64,000 nt of DNA, taken from NCBI GenBank assembly GCA_964291265.2, contig OZ219747.1, positions 3,392,001-3,456,000 on the forward strand. The letters are read 5' to 3'. The notes beneath the pieces were generated by a model. That model searched no databases. It saw only the letters and a list, made by a program, of their open reading frames with translations, and was not told where the DNA came from. The stretch's first letter is position 1. Each line of letters begins with the position of its first letter. Source of the DNA: Alphaproteobacteria bacterium (GTDB lineage Bacteria > Pseudomonadota > Alphaproteobacteria > SP197). Below are positions 13,980-24,470 of the stretch, piece by piece. A program made the position numbers and the translations under genes.

Positions 13980-14525
13980 GACCCACTTTCCCACCCCTGC
14001 CTGTGGATGGTCCACCGCCTCGACCAACCCCCTTCGTCCGCGCAGCACGAGCCGGAACGGCGATGACCCGCCGGGACGCTCGGGACCGGCTGACCACGGA
14101 TGTGTCTCTGCAGGCGCCCCGCAAGAGTGCCGGGACAGGAAGGATCTCTCGACTGTCGGCGGCGTCAGCGTTGGTGCTTCGTTCGACCTTGCTTGCGCTC
14201 CGTTGTCGTCCTGCGGCCCGCAACCTGAGAGTTTGAATCATAATCCATTGATATTGTAATTTTTTATTCACGCATTTAACTCGTGCCCGCCCGAGAAAGC
14301 AGGACTTTCCCATGCTACGGCTGATTTGGGAAGCCGATGAATCGCGCCCGAATCGGCCATCTGATCTTTCGCGAAACCGCCGAATCGAGGCCGAATCGGG
14401 ATGTCCTGGGCGGATTCCGTGGCGTCAGTGCCGCCCGCACAGCGACACCGGCAGCGTTTTCGGCCCGGATGCCTGGTTCTTGATGGTCTGGCAGCGTTCC
14501 GGGATTCCCGGACGCTCAAGGCGCC

Positions 14526-14858
14526 TCAGGGCCGGGCTTGGAGAGGATCAGGAACCGCGTGTTGTTGGCCACCACCCCGAGCCGCTGGAACTGCTGCTTA
14601 AGGCTTCCAGCCGGTCCACTGGTCGCGGGGAGCGCACTTGAAGGCGCCGTTCTGCCACGCCGCCAGACCCAGCCAATGGCCCCTGAAGGTCGCAAGGTAG
14701 CGCAGACCGCGACCCGCCAGGCGACGGAAGCCGAGATCGTGGTACTCGTTCATCAGCGCGTCCAGGAGCGGACGCTCCTCCGGCCTCGCCAGGCGAACCT
14801 CAACCTCAGACAGGGAAAAACCCTCAGGAGCTTCCTGATGGATCGGGACAGCTTCCAT
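14526..14858 (-). pseudogene. DUF4338-like (IS-associated) protein fragment, frameshifted and truncated
   Basis: EVRLARPEERPLLDALMNEYHDLG...LRYLATFRGHWLGLAAW...RDQWTGWKP stop; after a +1 shift near 14600 it continues KQQFQRLGVVANNTRFLIL. Confidence 0.7.
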
Positions 14859-14978
14859 ACGCTTGCGAATCGACAACATGACCGGACCGTCGCACATCCC
14901 AAGCGGGATGGCCAGCGGGAAATGTCCGCGCACGTGCAACATACGAACGCCTGACGTCAAGTGAAATCAAGCGAATTC

Positions 14979-15160
14979 CAGGACCATTCTGTTGTCGCGA
15001 TCGGCGGTGGATAACCGGGTCAGAGGCCGTTCTTGAAGTGGGTGGCACCTTCTCGATGTCGGAACCGGTATATCGACAACGAAATCCTGTCCCGAATGGA
15101 CCTCCAGATCTACCTACAACGCCCCTTCATCGGACGAAACCGGACAAAAGAAGAGCCCTG
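14979..15160. mobile_element. 182-bp MITE, copy 1 (ISAs1-like ends)
   Basis: Ends caggaccattctgttgtc / gacaaaagaagagccctg (14/18 inverted match); perfect 10-bp direct repeat aagcgaattc at 14969-14978 and 15161-15170; second copy at 50130-50312. Confidence 0.9.
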
Positions 15161-15209
15161 AAGCGAATTCCAGCGTGGGACGGCCTTGGATTCACGGGGG
15201 GGGTAACGC

Positions 15210-15238
15210 TTGCCGGGCACCCGCACTGTCCGTATGAT
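15210..15238 (+). promoter_or_regulatory. Putative sigma70 promoter, leaderless geometry
   Basis: TTGCCG-17 nt-TATGAT, ATG 6 nt downstream, no SD. Confidence 0.6.
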
Positions 15239-15244
15239 GTCCCC

Positions 15245-15847
15245 ATGTCAGAGGCCATCGGGTTCGATACACACCGCTTCGTCAAGCACCTGACCGACTG
15301 CGGCTTCACCGAGCAGCAGGCCGAGGCGCTTGTCGACGAGCAGGTCGCCCTGCTCGACGCCAAGCTGGCGACGAAGACCGACATCGCGGAGATCAACGCC
15401 AACCTGGCGACGAAGACCGACATCGCGGAGATCAAGACCGACATCGCGGAGATCAAGACCGATGTCGCGGAGATCAAGACCGATGTCGCGGAGATCAAGA
15501 CCGACATCGCGAGGCTCGAGGCCGACATGGCGACGAAGACCGATGTCGCGGAGATCAAGACCGACATCGCGAGACTCGAGGCCGACATGGCGACGAAGAC
15601 CGATGTCGCGGAGATCAAGACCGACATCGCGAGGCTCGAGGCCGACATGGACGCGCTGCGCCAGGAGACCAAGGCAGGCATCGACGCGGTGCGCCAGGAA
15701 AACGCAACCGCCATGGCGGAAAACGCAACCGCGATGGCGAGGCTCGAGACGCGCATGGAGTCGATCAAGTCCGATCTGTTGAAATGGATGATCGGCCTGA
15801 TGATCGGTCTGGGAGGGTTGATGGTCGCCTTCGTCAGATTTCTGTAG
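15245..15847 (+). CDS. DUF1640/CCDC90-like coiled-coil membrane-anchored protein (200 aa)
   Basis: FDTHRFVKHL...GFTEQQAE head, ATKTD motifs, heptad repeats KTD(I/V)AEI, C-terminal TM LLKWMIGLMIGLGGLMVAFV. Confidence 0.85.
   Translation: MSEAIGFDTHRFVKHLTDCGFTEQQAEALVDEQVALLDAKLATKTDIAEINANLATKTDIAEIKTDIAEIKTDVAEIKTDVAEIKTDIARLEADMATKTDVAEIKTDIARLEADMATKTDVAEIKTDIARLEADMDALRQETKAGIDAVRQENATAMAENATAMARLETRMESIKSDLLKWMIGLMIGLGGLMVAFVRFL
15367..15740 (+). repeat. Intragenic in-frame tandem repeats (21-bp, 33-bp and 60-bp units)
   Basis: aagaccga(c/t)(a/g)tcgcggagatc repeated; KTDVAEIKTDIARLEADM x3; ENATAMA x2. Confidence 0.9.
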
Positions 15848-15959: not shown

Positions 15960-16760
15960 GCGGTCGTCGCGGTTCGCTCGAGGACCCTCTTCACGCAGAC
16001 ATGGATGTCGCGGCACAGTTCCCATGGGCTGAAACGCATCACGGCCCGACGTTCAGCTGAACGGAGTGACCACGCGCAGCAGGCGCGTCCTCGCCGGTCT
16101 CGAACACCGCGCCATCTGTCTGTTCGCCAAAGAGCCGGATACCGTTGTGTTCGACTGCGAGGCCGAGCCTGTGCCCGGCGACCTTGACGTCCCTTGGGCC
16201 TTGATGCCGCCTTCCCGCAGGCTTGCCGCCGAGAGCAAACTCCAGAGGGGTGTGGAACTCGACTCTCCGAGGCGGAGGGCGTCGTGGCCCGCGCGGGAAT
16301 GACCGTCTTGGCTGACCTTCCGGCGAAGTTCCGGGCTTGATCGACCCCCGGGCGCTCCGATCGCTCCATTGTCGTCTTGCAATCCGCCACCTGGATCCCG
16401 CTCATCTTGCCCATGGCGGTTTGGCGACGATCCGGCTGGCCTTCCTCTCGGCGCGCCGCACCGGTCCGGTGATGTCGGTCACAGCCCCACACGCCGTTGC
16501 CCTCGTCGGTGTCCACACGCGACGGTTCCCGGTGAAACTCCTCATGCGCGGCGCGGTCACAACACCAACGAACCGCGCCTCGCCCTCCCGGCATGGCGAA
16601 CCGCCGCTTGTTGCTCGTGACGTGTCGTGTTCTGGCGAAGGACCACGGCACCGGAGGGCGCCACATCTGGCGTCGAGAACAGGCGAATGGTCGTGCGAAC
16701 GCGTGAACAGCGATGGTGTCTCGTGTTCGGGAAGAATGAACGTAGCGCTTTTAGTCATCA
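15960..16760 (-). pseudogene. Decayed SF1 helicase + DUF559/Vsr-like nuclease remnant (copy 1)
   Basis: Fragments across frames: FTGNRRVWTPTRA (motif VI-like), RLGLAVEHNG...DG, AVMRFSPWELCRDIHVCVKRV (DUF559-like end). Confidence 0.4.
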
Positions 16761-16882
16761 TCCCACCACACTCACCGCGCCCTCAGATGCGCTTTCCGTG
16801 AACCTCGTGAGCCCGTACCGCGGCGACCGGTCGGTCCCCGACGTCCGATTCCGGGCAGCCCTCGGATTCGCCGGGTTGACGC

Positions 16883-16911
16883 TTGCCGGGCGGCGGCGCT
16901 GTCCCTATGAT
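16883..16911 (+). promoter_or_regulatory. Putative sigma70 promoter, leaderless geometry
   Basis: TTGCCG-17 nt-TATGAT, ATG 6 nt downstream. Confidence 0.6.
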
Positions 16912-16917
16912 GCCCCC

Positions 16918-17322
16918 ATGTCAGAGGGCATCGCGTTCGATACACACCGCTTCGTCAAGCGCCTGACCGACTGCGGCTTCACCGAGCAGCAGGCCGAGGT
17001 GCTTGTTGACGAGCAGGTCGCCCTGCTCAACGGCAACCTGGCGACGAAGACCGACATCGCGGAGATCAAGGCCGACATCGACGCGGTGCGCCAGGAGACC
17101 AAGGCGGGCATCGACGCGGTGCGCCAGGAGACCAAGGCGGGCATCGACGCGGTGCGCCAGGAAAACGCAACCGCCATGGCGGAAAACGCAACCGCCATGG
17201 CGAGGCTCGAGACGCGCATGGAGTCGATCAAGTCCGATCTGTTGAAATGGATGATCGGTCTGATGACTGGCCTGCTGATCGGTCTGGGAGGGTTGATGGT
17301 CGCCTTCGTCAGATTTCTGTAG
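16918..17322 (+). CDS. DUF1640/CCDC90-like coiled-coil membrane-anchored protein (134 aa), paralog of 15245-15847
   Basis: Near-identical head and TM; stalk has DAVRQETKAGI x2 instead of the KTDIAEI array. Confidence 0.85.
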   Translation: MSEGIAFDTHRFVKRLTDCGFTEQQAEVLVDEQVALLNGNLATKTDIAEIKADIDAVRQETKAGIDAVRQETKAGIDAVRQENATAMAENATAMARLETRMESIKSDLLKWMIGLMTGLLIGLGGLMVAFVRFL

Positions 17323-18000: not shown

Positions 18001-18463
18001 TGCTCGATGGCGTTCGTATGGTCCTCGCACCTACGGCCTCGGGCTTGTCGTCGATTCGCGTCTCGAGCGCTATCGACGGGCCTGGACCAGGGTTCGGTTC
18101 TCTGACGACACCCTGGATCCTCTGCAGTGCGGCGCCGGCCTCCAGGCCTTCGTCATCAACCTGCTGGTCGCCCACAGACTCATCCCTGCGCCGGATCGTC
18201 GCACTTATGCATGCAATCTCCGGCCTCAGGCTCTGCGAGGCGACCTGCCTCGGCCATGTCCGCCGCCTTCACGACATGCTCGCGCCATGGGATGAGGCCG
18301 CCGTGGCGCATCTCCTGCAACGCCCGGCCCTGCATGGTCGTCACCGACGAGGCCCTCACCGTGAAGTTCCCGCACCATAAGCGCCGGCCGTGACAGGGTG
18401 ATCAAGCGCATCGACCTTTCGGCACTGAAGCTGGAGTTCGCGGTGATGCTCCAAGACCGAAGC

Positions 18464-18499
18464 GTCTTGCAAGACTTCCGCAATCTTCCGCGATCTCCC
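18464..18499 (+). promoter_or_regulatory. Candidate operator upstream of protease
   Basis: gcaagacttcc-gcaatcttcc-gcgatctccc direct repeats plus palindrome gtcttgcaagac; 14/15 match to 20118-20132. Confidence 0.5.
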
Positions 18500-18588
18500 T
18501 GGCAGGTTTCTCAAGAACTCAACGATACCAACGCCGATCACGGATCGGCACCGTGCCCTCCGTTTCCAATCACAACGGAGAAGTCACA

Positions 18589-20049
18589 ATGGGTATTCAG
18601 ACACAAACGTTCCTCGCCAGCGCCATGGTTGCAGCGTTCGCTGCATCGACATGGACTGCGGCATCGGAATCGCCTCAGCCGTGGTCTCTGGAAGCAGGAT
18701 TCGAGGACGACCCCAGATCCCTCGAGATCGTGGCCGGTGGTCCGAACGGTGGTGAATGCGTTTACCTTCTGGACGACGGTTACTTTCCGGACGAACCCCA
18801 GCTCGTCGTCGACTACGTCAGCGGAAAGCATGCTCTCAGCTTCGGCACGGCGAGCCACGAGGCGGATACCATGCTCGAGGTCACGACGCCCTCGGGCGTT
18901 GTCCTGTGCGACGACGACAGCGGCGTCAGCCGCGACGCGCTCGTGACGCTGGACAACCCGGAAAGTGGTCAGTACCTGATCCGAATCGGAACGTACTCGC
19001 AGGAAGAGATCGGCAGTCACTCCGACGTGTTCGTCACCGAGTTCATCACGGGTGCTGCCAGCGACGAGATCGTCCTGCAGTCAACGCGCCGATGGTCTCT
19101 GGAAGCAGGATTCGAGGACGACCCCAGAACCGTCGAGGTGGTGGCCGGCGGTCCGAACGACAGTGAATGCGGCTACCTCCCGGAGGAACCCCAGCTCATC
19201 GTCGACTACGTCAGCGGGGAACACGCTCTCTCCTTCGGGACGGACAGCGACGAGTCGGATACCACGATCGAGGTCACGACGCCTTCGGGCAATGTCCTGT
19301 GCAACGACGACAGCGATGTCAGCAACGACGCGCTCGTGACGCTGGACAACCCGGAAAGTGGCCAGTACCTGATCCGGGTCGGAACGTACGCGCAGGAAGA
19401 GATCGGCAGCCGCTCCGGCGTGTTCGTCACTGAAATGTTTGAAGACGAGACCAGCGTCTCCTCCGGAACGGGTTTCCTGGTCTCCCGCCATCACATCGTC
19501 ACGAACTGGCATGTCGTTGACAGCGCCATCGGCAGCGTCACCGTACGGGCACTGGGCCTCCCGGAATTCCAGGCCGAGGTCGTGATGTACAATGAAGAGG
19601 GCGACATCGCGCTTCTCTACGTTCATGACATGCCCGAAGAGCTGAGCGGGGTTGTCTTTCGCTCCCGGCCGCCGGTTTCTGTCGGCGAAACCGTCTTCGC
19701 CTTCGGGTTCCCGATGTCGAACGGCAACTTCACCCAGGGCAACGTCTCGGCGCTGACCGGTGCCGACGGTGATCTCACCCGACTCCAGTTCACGGCCCCC
19801 ATGCAGTTGGGCAGTTCCGGTTCGCCATTGTTTGACGCGGAGGGACATGTGATCGGCATGGCGACATCGAGATTCAGGGATGAACAGCTGGTCAACTTTG
19901 CCCTCCGCGGCGCCCTTGTCCGGGTCTTCCTCGATGCGAACAATGTCGACTACGAGCTCGCGGACCTCGCTGGCATCCTGCCGCCGGCCGACATCGGCAG
20001 CCATGCTCAAATCGCCGTGGTGGAACTGATCGTCAACTCCACTTCGTAA
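18589..20049 (+). CDS. Secreted trypsin-like (S1) serine protease with two tandem N-terminal PPC-like domains
   Basis: Signal peptide; duplicated WSLEAGFEDDPR...CDDDSG...PESGQYLIRIGTY domain; triad VTNWHVV / DIALL / GSSGSPL; GGAG RBS. Confidence 0.88.
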   Translation: MGIQTQTFLASAMVAAFAASTWTAASESPQPWSLEAGFEDDPRSLEIVAGGPNGGECVYLLDDGYFPDEPQLVVDYVSGKHALSFGTASHEADTMLEVTTPSGVVLCDDDSGVSRDALVTLDNPESGQYLIRIGTYSQEEIGSHSDVFVTEFITGAASDEIVLQSTRRWSLEAGFEDDPRTVEVVAGGPNDSECGYLPEEPQLIVDYVSGEHALSFGTDSDESDTTIEVTTPSGNVLCNDDSDVSNDALVTLDNPESGQYLIRVGTYAQEEIGSRSGVFVTEMFEDETSVSSGTGFLVSRHHIVTNWHVVDSAIGSVTVRALGLPEFQAEVVMYNEEGDIALLYVHDMPEELSGVVFRSRPPVSVGETVFAFGFPMSNGNFTQGNVSALTGADGDLTRLQFTAPMQLGSSGSPLFDAEGHVIGMATSRFRDEQLVNFALRGALVRVFLDANNVDYELADLAGILPPADIGSHAQIAVVELIVNSTS

Positions 20050-20059
20050 CGATCCCCGA

Positions 20060-20094
20060 TCCCGGGCGCTGTCTCAACGAGGCGGCGCCCGGGA
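20060..20094 (+). terminator. GC-rich hairpin after the protease gene
   Basis: tcccgggcgc...gcgcccggga 10-bp perfect stem, extended by G-U pairs; no U tract. Confidence 0.45.
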
Positions 20095-20117
20095 GGTTGC
20101 GTGCTTAAGCTCCGACC

Positions 20118-20139
20118 GCAAGACTTCTGCAAGACTGCG
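20118..20139 (+). promoter_or_regulatory. Candidate operator upstream of repeat protein
   Basis: gcaagacttct-gcaagactgcg, 11-bp period direct repeat. Confidence 0.5.
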
Positions 20140-20210
20140 GAACCCCGCGATCATGTTGCGTCCATCGCCGATGTGCTTGAATGGGGCACTTGAACACTAG
20201 GCTGGACGAC

Positions 20211-22289
20211 ATGCCTGACCGCAACTGGTGCATCGCACTTGTTCTGGGTGCTGCGGTGGCGGCGTTGCCAACCGTGGCAGCGTCCGAATCCGTCGGCAGT
20301 GGCCCCGAATTCGGCATCAACCGTGGCGCCCTGGCCTTCGACGGCGCGTGCAACGATCCCCGATTTGTCGTCAGGCAGGGACCGGATATAAGCGATCCTG
20401 CGCAGATCTTCGGCGACGCAGCGGATTGTCATGCCGCCTGGGAACGTGGTGAGATCGTCCTGCGGCAGACGGCGCACTACAGCGTAAGCGGCATGGCCGC
20501 GGTTTCCCGTCTCGACGACCTTGGCCAGCACTCCAACGGACCAGGCGACGCCCTCGGCGAGGACCAGGGTCCCTGGTCTTCGAATGGCGTGTGCAACGAC
20601 CCACGGTTCACAGCCGACCCGCGCTGGCCAGGCGCCGTCGAGCGGATTGACGATGCCGAAGGCAAGGACTCCACCGACTGCCTGCGGGCGAACCTGTTGC
20701 GCCAGGCGTGGCCGATTCGGCTTCGACTGACGGGCGGCGAGGGTCTCGTGTTCGGTGACGACAGCGGCGAGTGGGCCGGCGACGGCGAATGCGACGATCC
20801 CAGGTTCTTTGGAATCGCTGCTGCCAGCGACGCTGGCATATCCGACCTTCTGCGCGATGCTTCGGACTGTTACGACGCCTGGTCTGAAGGGCACGTCAAA
20901 CTGATCTCACCGGTTGTTGTCCTCGACCGGTTGCCGGCCGGATTCGACCTTGGCAACGACACCGGCGAATGGTCGTTCGATGGCGAATGCGATGATCCAC
21001 GGTTCGAAGGTGCCGGCACAGCTGGCGAGTTGCGAATCGAGCATCGGGCACGCGACGCAACCGATTGCGCCAGGGCTCTTCTGAACGAAGAGGTCGACCT
21101 CAAGGCCCCGAGACTTCAGGACGGAACGGAACTCTCCTTCGGAGACGACGGGAGCGATTGGGCCCATGATGGTGTGTGCAACGACCCACGCTTCGACGCC
21201 GACCCACGACAGGCGGACGCGGCTGCACGCGTGGGCAGTGCAGAGGAACATGACGCCAGCGATTGTCGGCGAGCCTTCCTCGAGCGCCGCGTGTGGCCGG
21301 TGTGGGGGCGCTCAGCGGACGACAAGGTCCTCGCGTTCGGCGACGACAGCGGCGAGTGGGCCGGCGACGGTGAGTGCGACGACCCCAGGTTTTTCGGAGT
21401 CGCTGCGGCCAGAAGCGCCAACGCGTCCAGTCTTCTGCGCGATGCGTCAGACTGTTACGAGGCCTGGTCGGAAGGGGGCATCACGCTGATCTCGCCGGTT
21501 GCCGTTCTCGACAGGCTGCGCGAAGTCGACCTTGGCAACGACACCAGCGAATGGGCGTTCGATGGCGAATGCGACGATCCAAGGTTCGAAGGCGTGGGCG
21601 TGGCGAACGAGTTGCGGATCGAACATCAGGCGCGCGATGCGACTGACTGCGCCAGGGCCCTGCTGAACGAAGAGGCCGGCCTCAAGGTCCCGAGACTTCA
21701 TGACGGAACGGAACTTTCCTTCGGAGACGACGGGGGTGGTTGGGCCCAAGATGGTGTGTGCAACGACCCACGCTTCGACGCCGATCCACGACAGGCGGGT
21801 GCGGTTGCACGCGTGGGCAATGCCGAAGAACATGACGCCAGCGATTGTCGGCGAGCCTTCCTCGAGCGCCGCGTGTGGCCGGTGTGGGGGCGCTCAGCGG
21901 ACAACAGGGAGCTCGCGTTCGGCGACGACAGCGGCCAATGGCCCCTCGACGGCGAGTGTGACGATCCCAGGTTCGTCGGAGCTGCCACCGCCGAGAGCGC
22001 CAGCGTGTCGGACCTCCTTCGTGACGCTTCGGACTGTTACGAGGCCTGGATCGCCGGGACAATCAAGCTCTTCTCGCTGGAAGATGCATCGGGCAAGATG
22101 CCGCCCGACTTCGACCTCGGCGACGACTCCGGGGAATGGGCGTTCGATGGCGAATGCGACGACCCACGGTTTCATGGTGATCACGTGGCGTCCGAGTTGC
22201 ATCCGGAGAATCGGGGACGCGACGCAACCGATTGCGGACGGGCCTTGCTGAATGGCGAGGCGGACATCACGATTCAAGCGTCGCAGTGA
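20211..22289 (+). CDS. Secreted Asp/Cys-rich repeat protein (10 x GDDSGEWxxDGECDDPRF...DAxDC)
   Basis: Signal peptide; ten copies of a two-Cys acidic motif; ~582-585 bp higher-order DNA repeat. Confidence 0.85.
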   Translation: MPDRNWCIALVLGAAVAALPTVAASESVGSGPEFGINRGALAFDGACNDPRFVVRQGPDISDPAQIFGDAADCHAAWERGEIVLRQTAHYSVSGMAAVSRLDDLGQHSNGPGDALGEDQGPWSSNGVCNDPRFTADPRWPGAVERIDDAEGKDSTDCLRANLLRQAWPIRLRLTGGEGLVFGDDSGEWAGDGECDDPRFFGIAAASDAGISDLLRDASDCYDAWSEGHVKLISPVVVLDRLPAGFDLGNDTGEWSFDGECDDPRFEGAGTAGELRIEHRARDATDCARALLNEEVDLKAPRLQDGTELSFGDDGSDWAHDGVCNDPRFDADPRQADAAARVGSAEEHDASDCRRAFLERRVWPVWGRSADDKVLAFGDDSGEWAGDGECDDPRFFGVAAARSANASSLLRDASDCYEAWSEGGITLISPVAVLDRLREVDLGNDTSEWAFDGECDDPRFEGVGVANELRIEHQARDATDCARALLNEEAGLKVPRLHDGTELSFGDDGGGWAQDGVCNDPRFDADPRQAGAVARVGNAEEHDASDCRRAFLERRVWPVWGRSADNRELAFGDDSGQWPLDGECDDPRFVGAATAESASVSDLLRDASDCYEAWIAGTIKLFSLEDASGKMPPDFDLGDDSGEWAFDGECDDPRFHGDHVASELHPENRGRDATDCGRALLNGEADITIQASQ

Positions 22290-22308
22290 CCACCGAGCGA
22301 GACATCGA

Positions 22309-23163
22309 ATGGGCAGCTACGAATACAAGGTTCTGATCGTCGATGACGAGGCTGATGTCCGCAACGGCTGGGCGGCGGGACTGTGTGAGTTGGGCGTGCG
22401 CAAGCAGGAGTTCATCGCCATCGGCGCAAAGACGGCCGGGGACGCTCTCGACCTCCTCGCGGAAGAGAGATCTCGTGGCGCGCCCTTCAACGTCGCCGTG
22501 CTCGACCTGAAGCTCGAGGGAAGCGGCGAGCCTTGGGAGAGCGACCCATGGGCTCTCGCAAGGCGGCTGAAGGAACTCTATCAGCCCTATCCCGATCTGG
22601 GGATCCTCGTGGTGACGGCCATCCACTGCGATCCGGCCGATTTCAAGGTTGCCAGCGACATCGCCGACGGAGGCTATCTCTCCAAGGCCGCCATCGACGC
22701 CGAGAACCTCGCCGAGGTCATCAGGACACGCTTTCCGCCTCGGGAAGCTCCCGTCTACCGGTTCTCTCCGGCGCACCGGGACAACCCGGAGCACGGCTTC
22801 ATCCTGGACACAGGCACCATGACCTTGCGGCGCCTTCCGGGCCGCGCAAGGGTGTCGACGCCGCGCGGCATGGGAGATCTCTGGTTTCTCGAGGTGTTCC
22901 TGCGCGAGGCCCTGGACGGGCCCCCGGAAACTCTCGTCGGCTACGACACCATCCATGCCTACAAGGACGGCCGCCGCCAGACGACCATCCCAATTCCCTG
23001 GCACCTCGGCACACAGCGGACCCAGGGAGAGGACAACAGCTGGATTCATCAACCCGTGTCCCGACTGCGCGCCCTGCTTGATCCGGTGGAAAGGAGCATT
23101 TTCGAGAACAGGCGCAATGAAGGTTACGTGGTCGCGGCGAAGATCACGAGGGACGACGCTTGA
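22309..23163 (+). CDS. Response regulator (REC + divergent winged-helix-like output)
   Basis: VLIVDDE, AVLDLKL (phospho-Asp), VVTA, YLSK; C-terminal VSRLRALL...RRNEGY resembles OmpR-type DNA-binding end. Confidence 0.8.
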   Translation: MGSYEYKVLIVDDEADVRNGWAAGLCELGVRKQEFIAIGAKTAGDALDLLAEERSRGAPFNVAVLDLKLEGSGEPWESDPWALARRLKELYQPYPDLGILVVTAIHCDPADFKVASDIADGGYLSKAAIDAENLAEVIRTRFPPREAPVYRFSPAHRDNPEHGFILDTGTMTLRRLPGRARVSTPRGMGDLWFLEVFLREALDGPPETLVGYDTIHAYKDGRRQTTIPIPWHLGTQRTQGEDNSWIHQPVSRLRALLDPVERSIFENRRNEGYVVAAKITRDDA

Positions 23164-24470
23164 TGGAGTGGCGCCTCTGGCCCAAGGTTGTCCAGGCCCT
23201 GTTGCTGCTTGCACTCCTGTTCGCTTCCGCCAGCGTCATCCTGCACCTTCTGCATGTCACCGTTCCGCCCGCATTGCCCTCGAATGCCCACGAGTTGTTC
23301 CAGTCAAGATGCCACCTGCCCGACAAAGCCAGGAAGCACTTCTCGGAGAGCCGGGAGTCCTACGCCGAAACCCGCGCCGACACCGAGTTGCGATGGTATC
23401 CAAGCGCCGGGTATCCGGGGTTCAAGGACATGCATGGTGTTGTTCTGGGGAGACCGGGCGTCCCGGAGGAGGGAGTGTCCGACGAGAACAAGGACGGTCC
23501 TTCGAACAACGCTTACGGCACCAGGGACGGGGTACGCATCTGGCCCGTCATGGAAGGGAGATTTCCCTTTCTCCGGGCGAGAGTGCCGGCGTCCAGGGTT
23601 GTCCACTGTGACGGGTCGAAGAGCGCATCACTGAAGGAGCCGTACATCCTCGTCGAAAGCAGGTGGGCATACGATGACTCGTTCGAATTGAAGGCGATCG
23701 TGACTCTTGTCCTCTTCCTGTTCAGCGTGATCGTGTTGGCCCTGATCATGTGGCATGTCGGTCGCCGCCGCCAGATGATGGATATCAGGCATGATCTCAG
23801 AAACATGCTGAACGGGCTGGTCGTCATGCTCGGCCAGCAGTTGCGGGAAGAGCATGGTTCAGAGACGGCCCGCACGGTCATGAGGACCGTCACGACCCGC
23901 GTCGACTACCTGATCCAGATGGTGGAACCGGGGCACTACAGGAGCGAGACCGAGATTCTGCATCTGCGTTCGCTGTTTCTCGATCTCGGCATGGGTGTCC
24001 CGACCGACGTCAAGGTCGACCTGGACTGTGCGGATTCCATCGACATCGAGTGCTGGGAGGAGTACTTCAGGCGGGCCATCGATAACGCCCTCGTCAACGC
24101 GGCCTCCGCGGCACGGGCAGCGTCCCGTCCCCTGGTGCGTATCCGCGTCGACACCACGGCGAGGACGGTGACGATTGTCATCGAGAACAACGGACAACGG
24201 GTCCCGGACCATGTGTTGCGGAGCTTCAGGCGCCGTCATTCATTGCGCGTGCGGGGAAGCAACGCGGGCCTGGGCCTCAACATCGTGCGGTCCGTGACAT
24301 GGCGCCATGGTGGCAGGGTCGCACTCGACAACCTCGCGCCAGAAGACGAGATCAGCGTGCGCCTGACGCTTCGCTTGCCGCGTCGTCAGGCCCATGCGTT
24401 GTCACGACTCCCCGGACGGTGGCGGCCTCCTGGCAGGCGCAGGAGCGCAGCGAGCGCCTCTTGTCCATGA
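23163..24470 (+). CDS. Membrane sensor histidine kinase
   Basis: Two TM segments around a periplasmic domain, H-box IRHDLRNML, N-box DNALVNA, G2 GLGLNIVR; TGATG overlap with RR. Confidence 0.82.
   Translation: MEWRLWPKVVQALLLLALLFASASVILHLLHVTVPPALPSNAHELFQSRCHLPDKARKHFSESRESYAETRADTELRWYPSAGYPGFKDMHGVVLGRPGVPEEGVSDENKDGPSNNAYGTRDGVRIWPVMEGRFPFLRARVPASRVVHCDGSKSASLKEPYILVESRWAYDDSFELKAIVTLVLFLFSVIVLALIMWHVGRRRQMMDIRHDLRNMLNGLVVMLGQQLREEHGSETARTVMRTVTTRVDYLIQMVEPGHYRSETEILHLRSLFLDLGMGVPTDVKVDLDCADSIDIECWEEYFRRAIDNALVNAASAARAASRPLVRIRVDTTARTVTIVIENNGQRVPDHVLRSFRRRHSLRVRGSNAGLGLNIVRSVTWRHGGRVALDNLAPEDEISVRLTLRLPRRQAHALSRLPGRWRPPGRRRSAASASCP

What the first reader, a model, noticed from the sequence alone, without database searches (positions are those of the whole stretch)
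18464..24470. Candidate self-contained two-component module: protease + Cys/Asp repeat protein + RR + HK with a shared operator
Seen: four co-oriented intact genes. The 15-mer GCAAGACTTC(C/T)GCAA (14/15 identical) lies upstream of both secreted-protein genes (18469, 20118), inside 10-11 bp direct repeats. The repeat gene, RR and HK are tightly spaced (19-bp gap, TGATG overlap). Established: OmpR-type winged-helix regulators bind direct repeats one helical turn apart. Inference: an autoregulated extracytoplasmic sensing/proteolysis system that I do not recognise as described.
Basis: partly seen in the sequence, partly recalled or inferred. Interest (0 to 1): 0.7.

Follow-up and report, generated by a model that had tools for sequence, protein, structure and literature searches.

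The report
Two-component switch for novel repeat protein
A four-gene block kept together in a group of uncultured Alphaproteobacteria pairs a sensor and a regulator with a protease and an unstudied cysteine-rich repeat protein, both likely secreted, and a conserved DNA repeat in front of them is probably where the regulator binds to switch the block on, likely when protein folding outside the cell membrane fails.

Summary
Observation confirmed. Four intact genes: a 2xPPC-trypsin-like protease, a protein of ten Cys/Asp repeats, a divergent OmpR-type regulator and a two-helix histidine kinase. The 15-mer occurs exactly twice in the 4.83-Mb genome. The gene order recurs at 7 further loci in 6 of 22 same-genus genomes. 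One distant genome has the four genes rearranged. The site precedes the protease gene at 8 of 8 co-linear loci, including two whose proteins are only 28-47% identical. It is missing before 75 of 75 repeat genes that lack this regulator, and also from the rearranged locus. All four genes are under purifying selection. Best reading: a small, self-regulating envelope circuit like MprAB-PepD or CutRS-HtrA; the sensor's two invariant cysteines suggest disulfide or folding sensing. Binding, signal and expression are untested. The new element is the repeat: widespread, no Pfam/NCBIfam family, confident predicted fold (pLDDT 94), no match among solved structures. A Notch-LNR likeness was not supported. 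Three of eight loci carry a broken gene. Verdict: new variant of a known kind.

The parts
18469..18493 (+). Candidate operator 1: GCAA-N7-GCAA core (18469-18483) plus a degenerate third unit, 120 nt before the protease start
   Evidence: core identical in 5 of 5 close relatives against 63-69% identity in the flanks; 13/15 and 14/15 in two divergent loci
18589..20049 (+). P0001, 486 aa: N-terminal export-like leader (by eye; hydropathy did not reach the 1.5 cut-off), two tandem PPC-like domains, trypsin-like serine protease domain (H308, D339, S410); no PDZ domain
   Evidence: Pfam Trypsin_2 E 3e-25, PPC E 7e-8; triad motifs and hydropathy; Atlas look-alikes named 'Peptidase S1 family protein'
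20060..20094 (+). 16-bp GC-rich hairpin just after the protease stop; likely terminator or mRNA stabiliser (no T-tract, not called by the terminator scan)
   Evidence: present in 6 of 6 close loci
20118..20138 (+). Candidate operator 2 (core 20118-20132), 93 nt before the repeat gene; would drive repeat gene, regulator and kinase
   Evidence: full core in 5 of 6 close loci, one unit deleted in L016
20211..22289 (+). P0002, 692 aa: hydrophobic leader (res. 7-25) and ten ~55-residue repeats, each with two invariant Cys and several near-invariant Asp; higher-order triplet period of 582-585 nt
   Evidence: no Pfam or NCBIfam hit; two-repeat model pLDDT 94; no structural match
22309..23163 (+). P0003, 284 aa response regulator: receiver domain (D66, T103, K126 kept) and divergent OmpR-type winged-helix domain
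23163..24470 (+). P0004, 435 aa histidine kinase: two membrane helices (9-27, 178-196), ~145-residue outer sensor with invariant C50 and C149, H-box H210, N-box, G1 box with Asn in place of Asp
18397..18466 (-). Flank, not part of the module: remnant of a helicase-like gene whose intact copy is at G000:C2:3940910-3943147; similarity stops 2 nt before operator 1

Best explanation
This conserved four-gene block is likely a small self-regulating two-component circuit, in which the membrane kinase would sense the folding or disulfide state of exported proteins through its two invariant outer cysteines and the regulator would bind the conserved 11-bp direct repeat to switch on the protease, the repeat protein and its own genes. 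Shown: gene content, domain types, conserved phosphotransfer residues, co-occurrence, purifying selection, and conservation and rarity of the repeat site. Inferred from the OmpR/PhoB family (recalled): H210 autophosphorylation, transfer to D66, head-to-tail binding of the phosphorylated regulator to half-sites one helical turn apart, and activation rather than repression. Inferred from spacing: site 2 drives a repeat-regulator-kinase transcript (positive feedback), and in the divergent loci the single site in front of the protease gene serves the whole block. Inferred by analogy to CutS: the signal is failure to form the C50-C149 disulfide. The outputs would be a PPC-targeted serine protease that clears or processes extracytoplasmic protein and an acidic, disulfide-stapled, probably calcium-binding repeat scaffold. 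My odds: circuit about 0.75; this signal, given the circuit, about 0.55.
For: Same order at 8 loci in 7 of 23 genus genomes, rearranged in L037, and at 2 of 2 metagenome loci that carry this regulator. Site before the protease gene at 8 of 8 co-linear loci; in the divergent two, 1 of 5000 and 0 of 5000 resamples match as well. Of 20 exact pattern matches in 23 genus genomes, 13 are at the block and the other 7 lie inside long open frames. 0 of 67 repeat loci from other taxa and 0 of 8 genus orphan or fusion loci have the core within 2 mismatches. A weight-matrix scan of the own genome scores only the two sites above 20 (34.7 and 27.3; next 19.3; the two were in the training set). The regulator C-terminus matches OmpR-type domains with probability 89%, E 2e-6, against at most 2.7% for 30 column shuffles. 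dN/dS is 0.20-0.39 for all four genes. C50 and C149 are the only invariant cysteines of the sensor in 9 of 9 aligned kinases. Streptomyces CutS uses two conserved sensor cysteines to control htrA3/htrB, and Cys-to-Ser makes it constitutive (PMC12802291). Both outputs are cysteine-rich (20 Cys in the repeats, 4 in the protease).
Against: No binding, expression or phenotype data. The rearranged locus L037 has regulator and kinase but no such site and no shared upstream word above chance. Site 2 is no better conserved than its surroundings (68 of 161 windows score higher). Paired sensor cysteines are common: 98.9% of strains have such a kinase (PMC12802291), so they may be merely structural. The protease is not an HtrA (far below NCBIfam cut-offs, no PDZ). 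In L023 and L144 it lacks the catalytic serine while the block persists. L021's kinase is split by an insertion element and L020's protease gene is frameshifted. The close relatives are kin, so they are not independent tests. No sigma-70-type promoter was found to place the sites against.
Confidence: 0.45

Rival explanations
1. Same circuit, different input: the kinase reads a substrate-derived peptide, a metal such as Ca2+, or the repeat protein itself as a CpxP-like partner, and the outputs serve digestion or binding of outside protein rather than quality control.
For: PPC domains of other secreted proteases bind substrate, for example triple-helical collagen (PMC6168687 abstract). Repeats are fused to PPC-like domains at 11 of 79 loci and to trypsin domains at 2 of 79, and in three genus MAG loci L028-L030, so repeat, PPC and protease work together without the kinase. 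The repeat gene stays directly upstream of the regulator even in rearranged L037. Near-invariant Asp residues suit metal binding.
Against: 71 of 79 repeat loci have no regulator of this family nearby, so the repeat does not need the kinase. No evidence of contact. The two-domain region of the protease has no solved relative by sequence, so substrate binding is only by family analogy.
Confidence: 0.3
2. The conserved word is a promoter element for another factor (an alternative sigma or a regulator encoded elsewhere), copied once by promoter duplication; the local regulator acts on other DNA.
For: L037 keeps the genes but not the word. The two sites share extra upstream sequence in some relatives, as expected from duplication. 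The regulator's recognition region differs strongly between close and divergent loci while the word stays the same.
Against: A shared factor should have other sites, yet none scores above 20 in the own genome, and genus genomes without this regulator show the word only inside open frames. The direct-repeat geometry fits a winged-helix regulator (recalled).
Confidence: 0.17
3. A mobile cargo block in decay: the genes sit together by history, and the circuit no longer works in most carriers.
For: Patchy (7 of 23 genus genomes), at different chromosomal places, flanked by element fragments and a gene remnant; 3 of 8 loci carry a broken gene; partial duplicates in G005 and G019.
Against: dN/dS 0.20-0.39 in every gene and 0.15-0.43 in every domain tested, phosphotransfer residues invariant, and the operator unchanged at synonymous distances of 0.35-0.75. 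A solved kinase core (7zp0_A) also has Asn at the G1 position, so that change does not mark a dead enzyme.
Confidence: 0.08

Closest known systems
CutRS (and CssRS) with HtrA3/HtrB in Streptomyces (PMC12802291; abstract, passages and section 6 read)
   Same: Two-helix kinase with two conserved cysteines in the outer sensor; small regulon centred on extracytoplasmic serine proteases; htrB-cssRS likely one operon.
   Different: The CutR site is TAWATAAA, not a GCAA direct repeat; the targets are HtrA-family; CutR did not bind its own promoter in vitro; no repeat protein; homology of the sensors was not tested.
MprAB-PepD of mycobacteria (PMC3062566 and PMC8561658; passages read)
   Same: Stress-responsive two-component pair encoded next to a serine protease gene that it regulates directly; positive feedback; kinase tuned by a third extracytoplasmic protein (DnaK).
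   Different: PepD is HtrA-like and lies downstream; MprA has a wide regulon including sigma factors, whereas here only two sites exist in the genome; the protease has PPC domains and no PDZ.
CpxAR-CpxP-DegP of E. coli (CpxP-CpxA link seen as a passage in PMC8561658; the rest recalled)
   Same: Kinase, OmpR-type regulator, periplasmic protease and an accessory periplasmic protein under one regulator.
   Different: No sequence likeness of the repeat protein to any Pfam family, CpxP included; CpxA and CpxR family cut-offs not met; an accessory role for the repeat is untested.
Uncharacterised Asp/Cys repeat proteins of Devosia, Pelagibacterium, Salinarimonas and others (labelled 'hypothetical protein' or 'protease YdgD')
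   Same: Same repeat unit, 34-63% identity in best segments; 512 confirmed stretches in genome contigs.
   Different: Elsewhere the gene stands among housekeeping genes or is fused to PPC or trypsin domains, without this regulator or the operator.

Membership tests
OmpR/PhoB-family response regulator | Receiver domain with phospho-accepting Asp, Ser/Thr and Lys | tested here: met
   D66 and K126 invariant in 12 of 12 rows, T103 in 6 of 6; receiver fold in the model; Pfam score 20.5 is below the 30.2 cut-off
OmpR/PhoB-family response regulator | C-terminal winged-helix domain (Trans_reg_C) | tested here: met
   No direct Pfam hit in 6 of 6 members and a low-confidence model there, but profile-profile probability 89% against shuffles at most 2.7%; 14 of 19 profile hits scanned carry Trans_reg_C; long-branch clade of 12 (support 99/98) in a tree with ordinary OmpR-type rows
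OmpR/PhoB-family response regulator | Binds tandem half-sites about one helical turn apart | not testable with these tools
   A conserved 11-bp-period site is present; binding not measured; the family rule is recalled
Classical membrane histidine kinase (HisKA/HATPase_c) | Two membrane helices, H-box His, N-box Asn, G1/G2 boxes | tested here: met
   HisKA only E 0.059; G1 has Asn for Asp in 9 of 9, as in 7zp0_A; no named NCBIfam kinase cut-off reached
HtrA/DegP family protease | Trypsin-like domain with His-Asp-Ser triad | tested here: met
   H308, D339, S410; serine motif present in 7 of 8 homologues checked
HtrA/DegP family protease | PDZ domain(s) and family score | tested here: not met
   No PDZ in Pfam; TIGR02037 74 bits against cut-off 416
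CutRS-like disulfide-sensing system | Two conserved cysteines in the outer sensor | tested here: met
   C50 and C149 invariant in 9 of 9; divergent members carry two or more extra Cys
CutRS-like disulfide-sensing system | Loss of the disulfide activates the kinase | not testable with these tools
   needs Cys-to-Ser mutants
CutRS-like disulfide-sensing system | CutR site TAWATAAA and HtrA targets | tested here: not met
   The conserved site is a GCAA direct repeat; the target protease is not HtrA
Notch LNR repeat (PF00066) | Profile or fold match | tested here: not met
   No match in the own genome at E 10, in 35 repeat units, in PDB sequences or by structure; small domains can be missed
Notch LNR repeat (PF00066) | Three disulfides per unit (recalled) | tested here: not met
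   Two cysteines per unit

The most novel reading that the evidence does not exclude
The repeat is a new small fold, stapled by one disulfide and loaded with calcium, that acts as the kinase's outer co-sensor: its folding state or its cleavage by the co-regulated protease sets kinase activity and closes a feedback loop. The block would then give the first function for a repeat family spread over hundreds of proteobacterial genomes.
Probability: 0.15. Interest if true: 0.75.

Novelty: new variant of a known kind. Interest (0 to 1): 0.45.

Why it matters
The circuit logic is familiar, but it gives a testable handle on a widespread secreted-type repeat family that has no Pfam or NCBIfam model, no solved relative by sequence or fold in the libraries searched, and no hit in my literature searches. 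The operator, regulator and kinase are a complete minimal set that could be rebuilt in a laboratory alphaproteobacterium. If the sensor cysteines work as in CutS, it would extend disulfide-state sensing to Gram-negative bacteria; if the repeat protein tunes the kinase, it would be a new class of accessory sensor.

Tried and rejected
Notch-LNR likeness of the repeat (my own recalled lead): not supported. Operator as a remnant of a transposase: the 7 one-mismatch hits lie in a transposase-like frame with different flanks, that protein has no match in the window, and the element fragment upstream ends at 18393; rejected. Operator as part of the upstream helicase-like remnant: the intact copy lacks the word; rejected. 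A wider regulon: none found. Shared upstream word in L037: none above chance. Regulator structure model: C-terminal domain too uncertain to use. Kinase profile in 400 class genomes at E 1e-25: none (only 4 candidates per genome were scored). Regulator profile in 400 phylum genomes: best score 107 bits against 292 for the own gene; the top 9 loci are ordinary OmpR-type genes without repeats within 1.5 kb. G430's six genus mates: no close member. Sigma-70 promoter scan: 0. No RNA holder listed. The complex predictor was not available, so kinase-repeat contact is open. Literature: peptide-motif search 0 papers; combined system search 0; YdgD/Devosia listing unrelated; AgrC G1-box, UzcRS and OmpR direct-repeat searches gave nothing usable; PMC538824 not held. 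Most subscription papers are outside the library, and no supplements were read.
Full report
Observation. The stretch holds four co-oriented intact genes: P0001 (18589-20049), P0002 (20211-22289), P0003 (22309-23163) and P0004 (23163-24470). The 19-nt gap and the TGATG overlap are real. The 15-mer lies at 18469 and 20118 and nowhere else in the 4.83-Mb genome; 7 one-mismatch hits fall in one multi-copy transposase-like frame. The word is a GCAA-N7-GCAA direct repeat with a weaker further unit. Within the window alone, 2 of 2000 resamples reach 14/15, but neighbouring word lengths give 33-153 of 2000. Contigs of one public run match most of the block letter for letter (possibly the source sample).

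The proteins. P0001 has two tandem PPC-like domains and a Trypsin_2 domain with H308, D339 and S410; it has no PDZ and scores far below HtrA cut-offs. Its leader looks like an export signal by eye but did not pass my hydropathy cut-off; no signal-peptide predictor was run. P0002 has a hydrophobic leader and ten repeats of about 55 residues. In 76 two-repeat rows, two Cys and three Asp per unit are invariant and further acidic positions are 87-99% conserved. It matches nothing in Pfam or NCBIfam or among PDB sequences. A two-repeat model is confident (pLDDT 94, pTM 0.80), yet Foldseek finds nothing at E 0.001 in the PDB or viral libraries and VIA-align finds nothing at Z 2 among 48,161 chains. 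The tool warns that a missing match does not prove a new fold. One disulfide and calcium binding per unit are my inference from the residues. P0003 has a receiver domain with D66, T103 and K126. Pfam misses its output domain and the model is poor there, but profile comparison with 15 OmpR-type C-termini gives probability 89%, E 2e-6, against at most 2.7% for 30 shuffles. Its distant full-length hits carry Trans_reg_C (14 of 19 scanned, chosen from 70 hits), and it sits in a long-branch clade of 12 (99/98, midpoint root only). P0004 has two membrane helices around a sensor of about 145 residues, H210, an N-box and a G1 box with Asn for Asp in 9 of 9 rows. A solved kinase core, 7zp0_A, has the same Asn. 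C50 and C149 are the only invariant sensor cysteines.

Co-occurrence. The regulator is found in 7 of 23 genus genomes, own included. In all seven the four genes stand in the same order, at 8 loci: five close relatives at 68-86% identity and two divergent loci at 28-47%. Of 79 repeat loci fetched from genome contigs (the best 80 of 512 stretches), 8 carry this regulator: seven are the genus loci, and L037, titled a Rhodobacter sp. MAG, has the order repeat-regulator-kinase-protease. Both metagenome loci with the regulator have the block, but they are near relatives of the G013 copies. The kinase was not found in 400 class genomes, nor a close regulator in 400 phylum genomes. The repeat itself is far wider: 1,492 shorter homologues among 7,994 scored. 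It is fused to PPC-like domains at 11 of 79 loci and to trypsin domains at 2 of 79, plus three genus loci, so repeat, PPC and protease are recurrent partners. The kinase link is lineage-limited. Against the sequence of five relatives (four for P0001), dN/dS is 0.20-0.39 for all four genes. Three of the eight loci are damaged: a frameshift in L020's protease gene, an insertion element in L021's kinase, and an internal deletion removing the catalytic serine in L023, shared with L144.

The operator. The core precedes the protease gene at 8 of 8 co-linear loci. It is identical in 5 of 5 close relatives and no 15-nt window of the 246 upstream is better conserved; the flanks are at 63-69%. The divergent loci match the window's word at 13/15 and 14/15, which 1 and 0 of 5000 resamples reach. 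Site 2 is complete in 5 of 6 close loci, has lost a unit in L016, is no better conserved than its surroundings, and is absent from the divergent loci. A conserved 16-bp hairpin separates the protease stop from site 2. Across 23 genus genomes the degenerate pattern has 20 exact matches against 2 for the reversed control: 13 at the block and 7 inside long open frames. None of 67 repeat loci without the regulator (4 more had too little upstream DNA) and none of 8 genus orphan or fusion loci has the core within 2 mismatches. L037 lacks the word and shows no shared upstream word. In the close clade, similarity to a helicase-like gene remnant stops 2 nt before site 1, which marks the module's left edge.

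Mechanism. The likely circuit: the kinase autophosphorylates H210, transfers to D66, and the regulator binds the half-sites in tandem (family behaviour, recalled; my search for a source found none usable). It would raise transcription of the protease and of a repeat-regulator-kinase unit, giving positive feedback and a regulon of just this block. Activation against repression is not resolved; no sigma-70-type promoter was found. For the signal I favour extracytoplasmic folding or disulfide state: Streptomyces CutS has two conserved sensor cysteines whose loss activates htrA3 (PMC12802291; abstract, passages and section 6), and both outputs here are cysteine-rich. The same paper shows that paired sensor cysteines are very common, which weakens the inference. 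Rivals are a substrate, metal or repeat-protein input (PPC domains can bind collagen, PMC6168687 abstract; CpxP and DnaK tune their kinases, PMC8561658 passages), a site read by another factor, and decaying cargo.

Comparison and novelty. It works like MprAB-PepD (pepD adjacent to and directly regulated by mprAB; PMC3062566 passages), CutRS/CssRS-HtrA and Cpx, but it is not a member of any: the protease is not an HtrA, no named kinase family cut-off is met, and the site differs. The regulator and kinase are members of the broad OmpR and classical kinase classes. I found no paper on the repeat or this block (the library lacks most subscription journals). Earlier scan notes had no look-alike DNA; word search returned analogous protease-plus-sensor blocks elsewhere, which I did not test. 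Verdict: real, conserved, probably functional; a new variant of a known kind whose value lies in the uncharacterised repeat family. Interest 0.45.

Noticed in passing
window 15038-15847 and 16627-17322: Two tandem CCDC90-like (PF07798) coiled-coil genes with 21-nt internal repeats, within a ~1.5-kb duplicated stretch just upstream of the module.
   Followed up: no
window 14200-15150 and 18077-18393: Fragments of multi-copy elements (14-43 and about 22 BLAST hits in the genome); the first holds a DruA-like frame at 14598-14960. Element families not determined.
   Followed up: partly
G000:C2:2481153 and six other places: A transposase-like frame (IS66 type by recall), present in 7 identical copies, contains a 14/15 match to the operator; insertion of this element could carry a near-site to new places.
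   Followed up: partly
L023:10778-12103 and L144:3-401: The protease gene ends in the same in-frame internal deletion without the catalytic serine in two assemblies, while repeat, regulator and kinase stay intact.
   Followed up: partly
L036:14575-15906 (G019); fragments in L019:4299-4717 (G005): A partial duplicate downstream of the block fuses a piece of the regulator's output domain in frame to most of the kinase; similar 413-443 aa proteins occur in the protein database.
   Followed up: partly
L028, L029, L030: About 690-aa proteins with glycine-rich MORN-like repeats, a peptidoglycan-binding-like segment (both named by eye), a trypsin domain and two of the Cys/Asp repeats.
   Followed up: no
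L045, L046, L052, L081, L088, L090, L092, L095, L102, L105, L106: Fusions of 1-6 repeats with 1-4 PPC-like domains and no protease domain, several titled Gammaproteobacteria such as Pseudohongiella and Woeseiaceae.
   Followed up: no
Devosia loci such as L086, L103, L109: The repeat gene sits in a stable housekeeping context, after an EamA-like transporter gene and facing the succinate dehydrogenase genes (named by eye).
   Followed up: no
window P0004 residues 289-298: A cytoplasmic Cys-x7-Cys-Trp motif at the start of the catalytic domain is invariant in 9 of 9 kinases; unexplained.
   Followed up: no
window 18932-19326: One contig of run X2 skips 393 nt, exactly one PPC-like domain: a one-domain variant or a collapsed assembly.
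   Followed up: no
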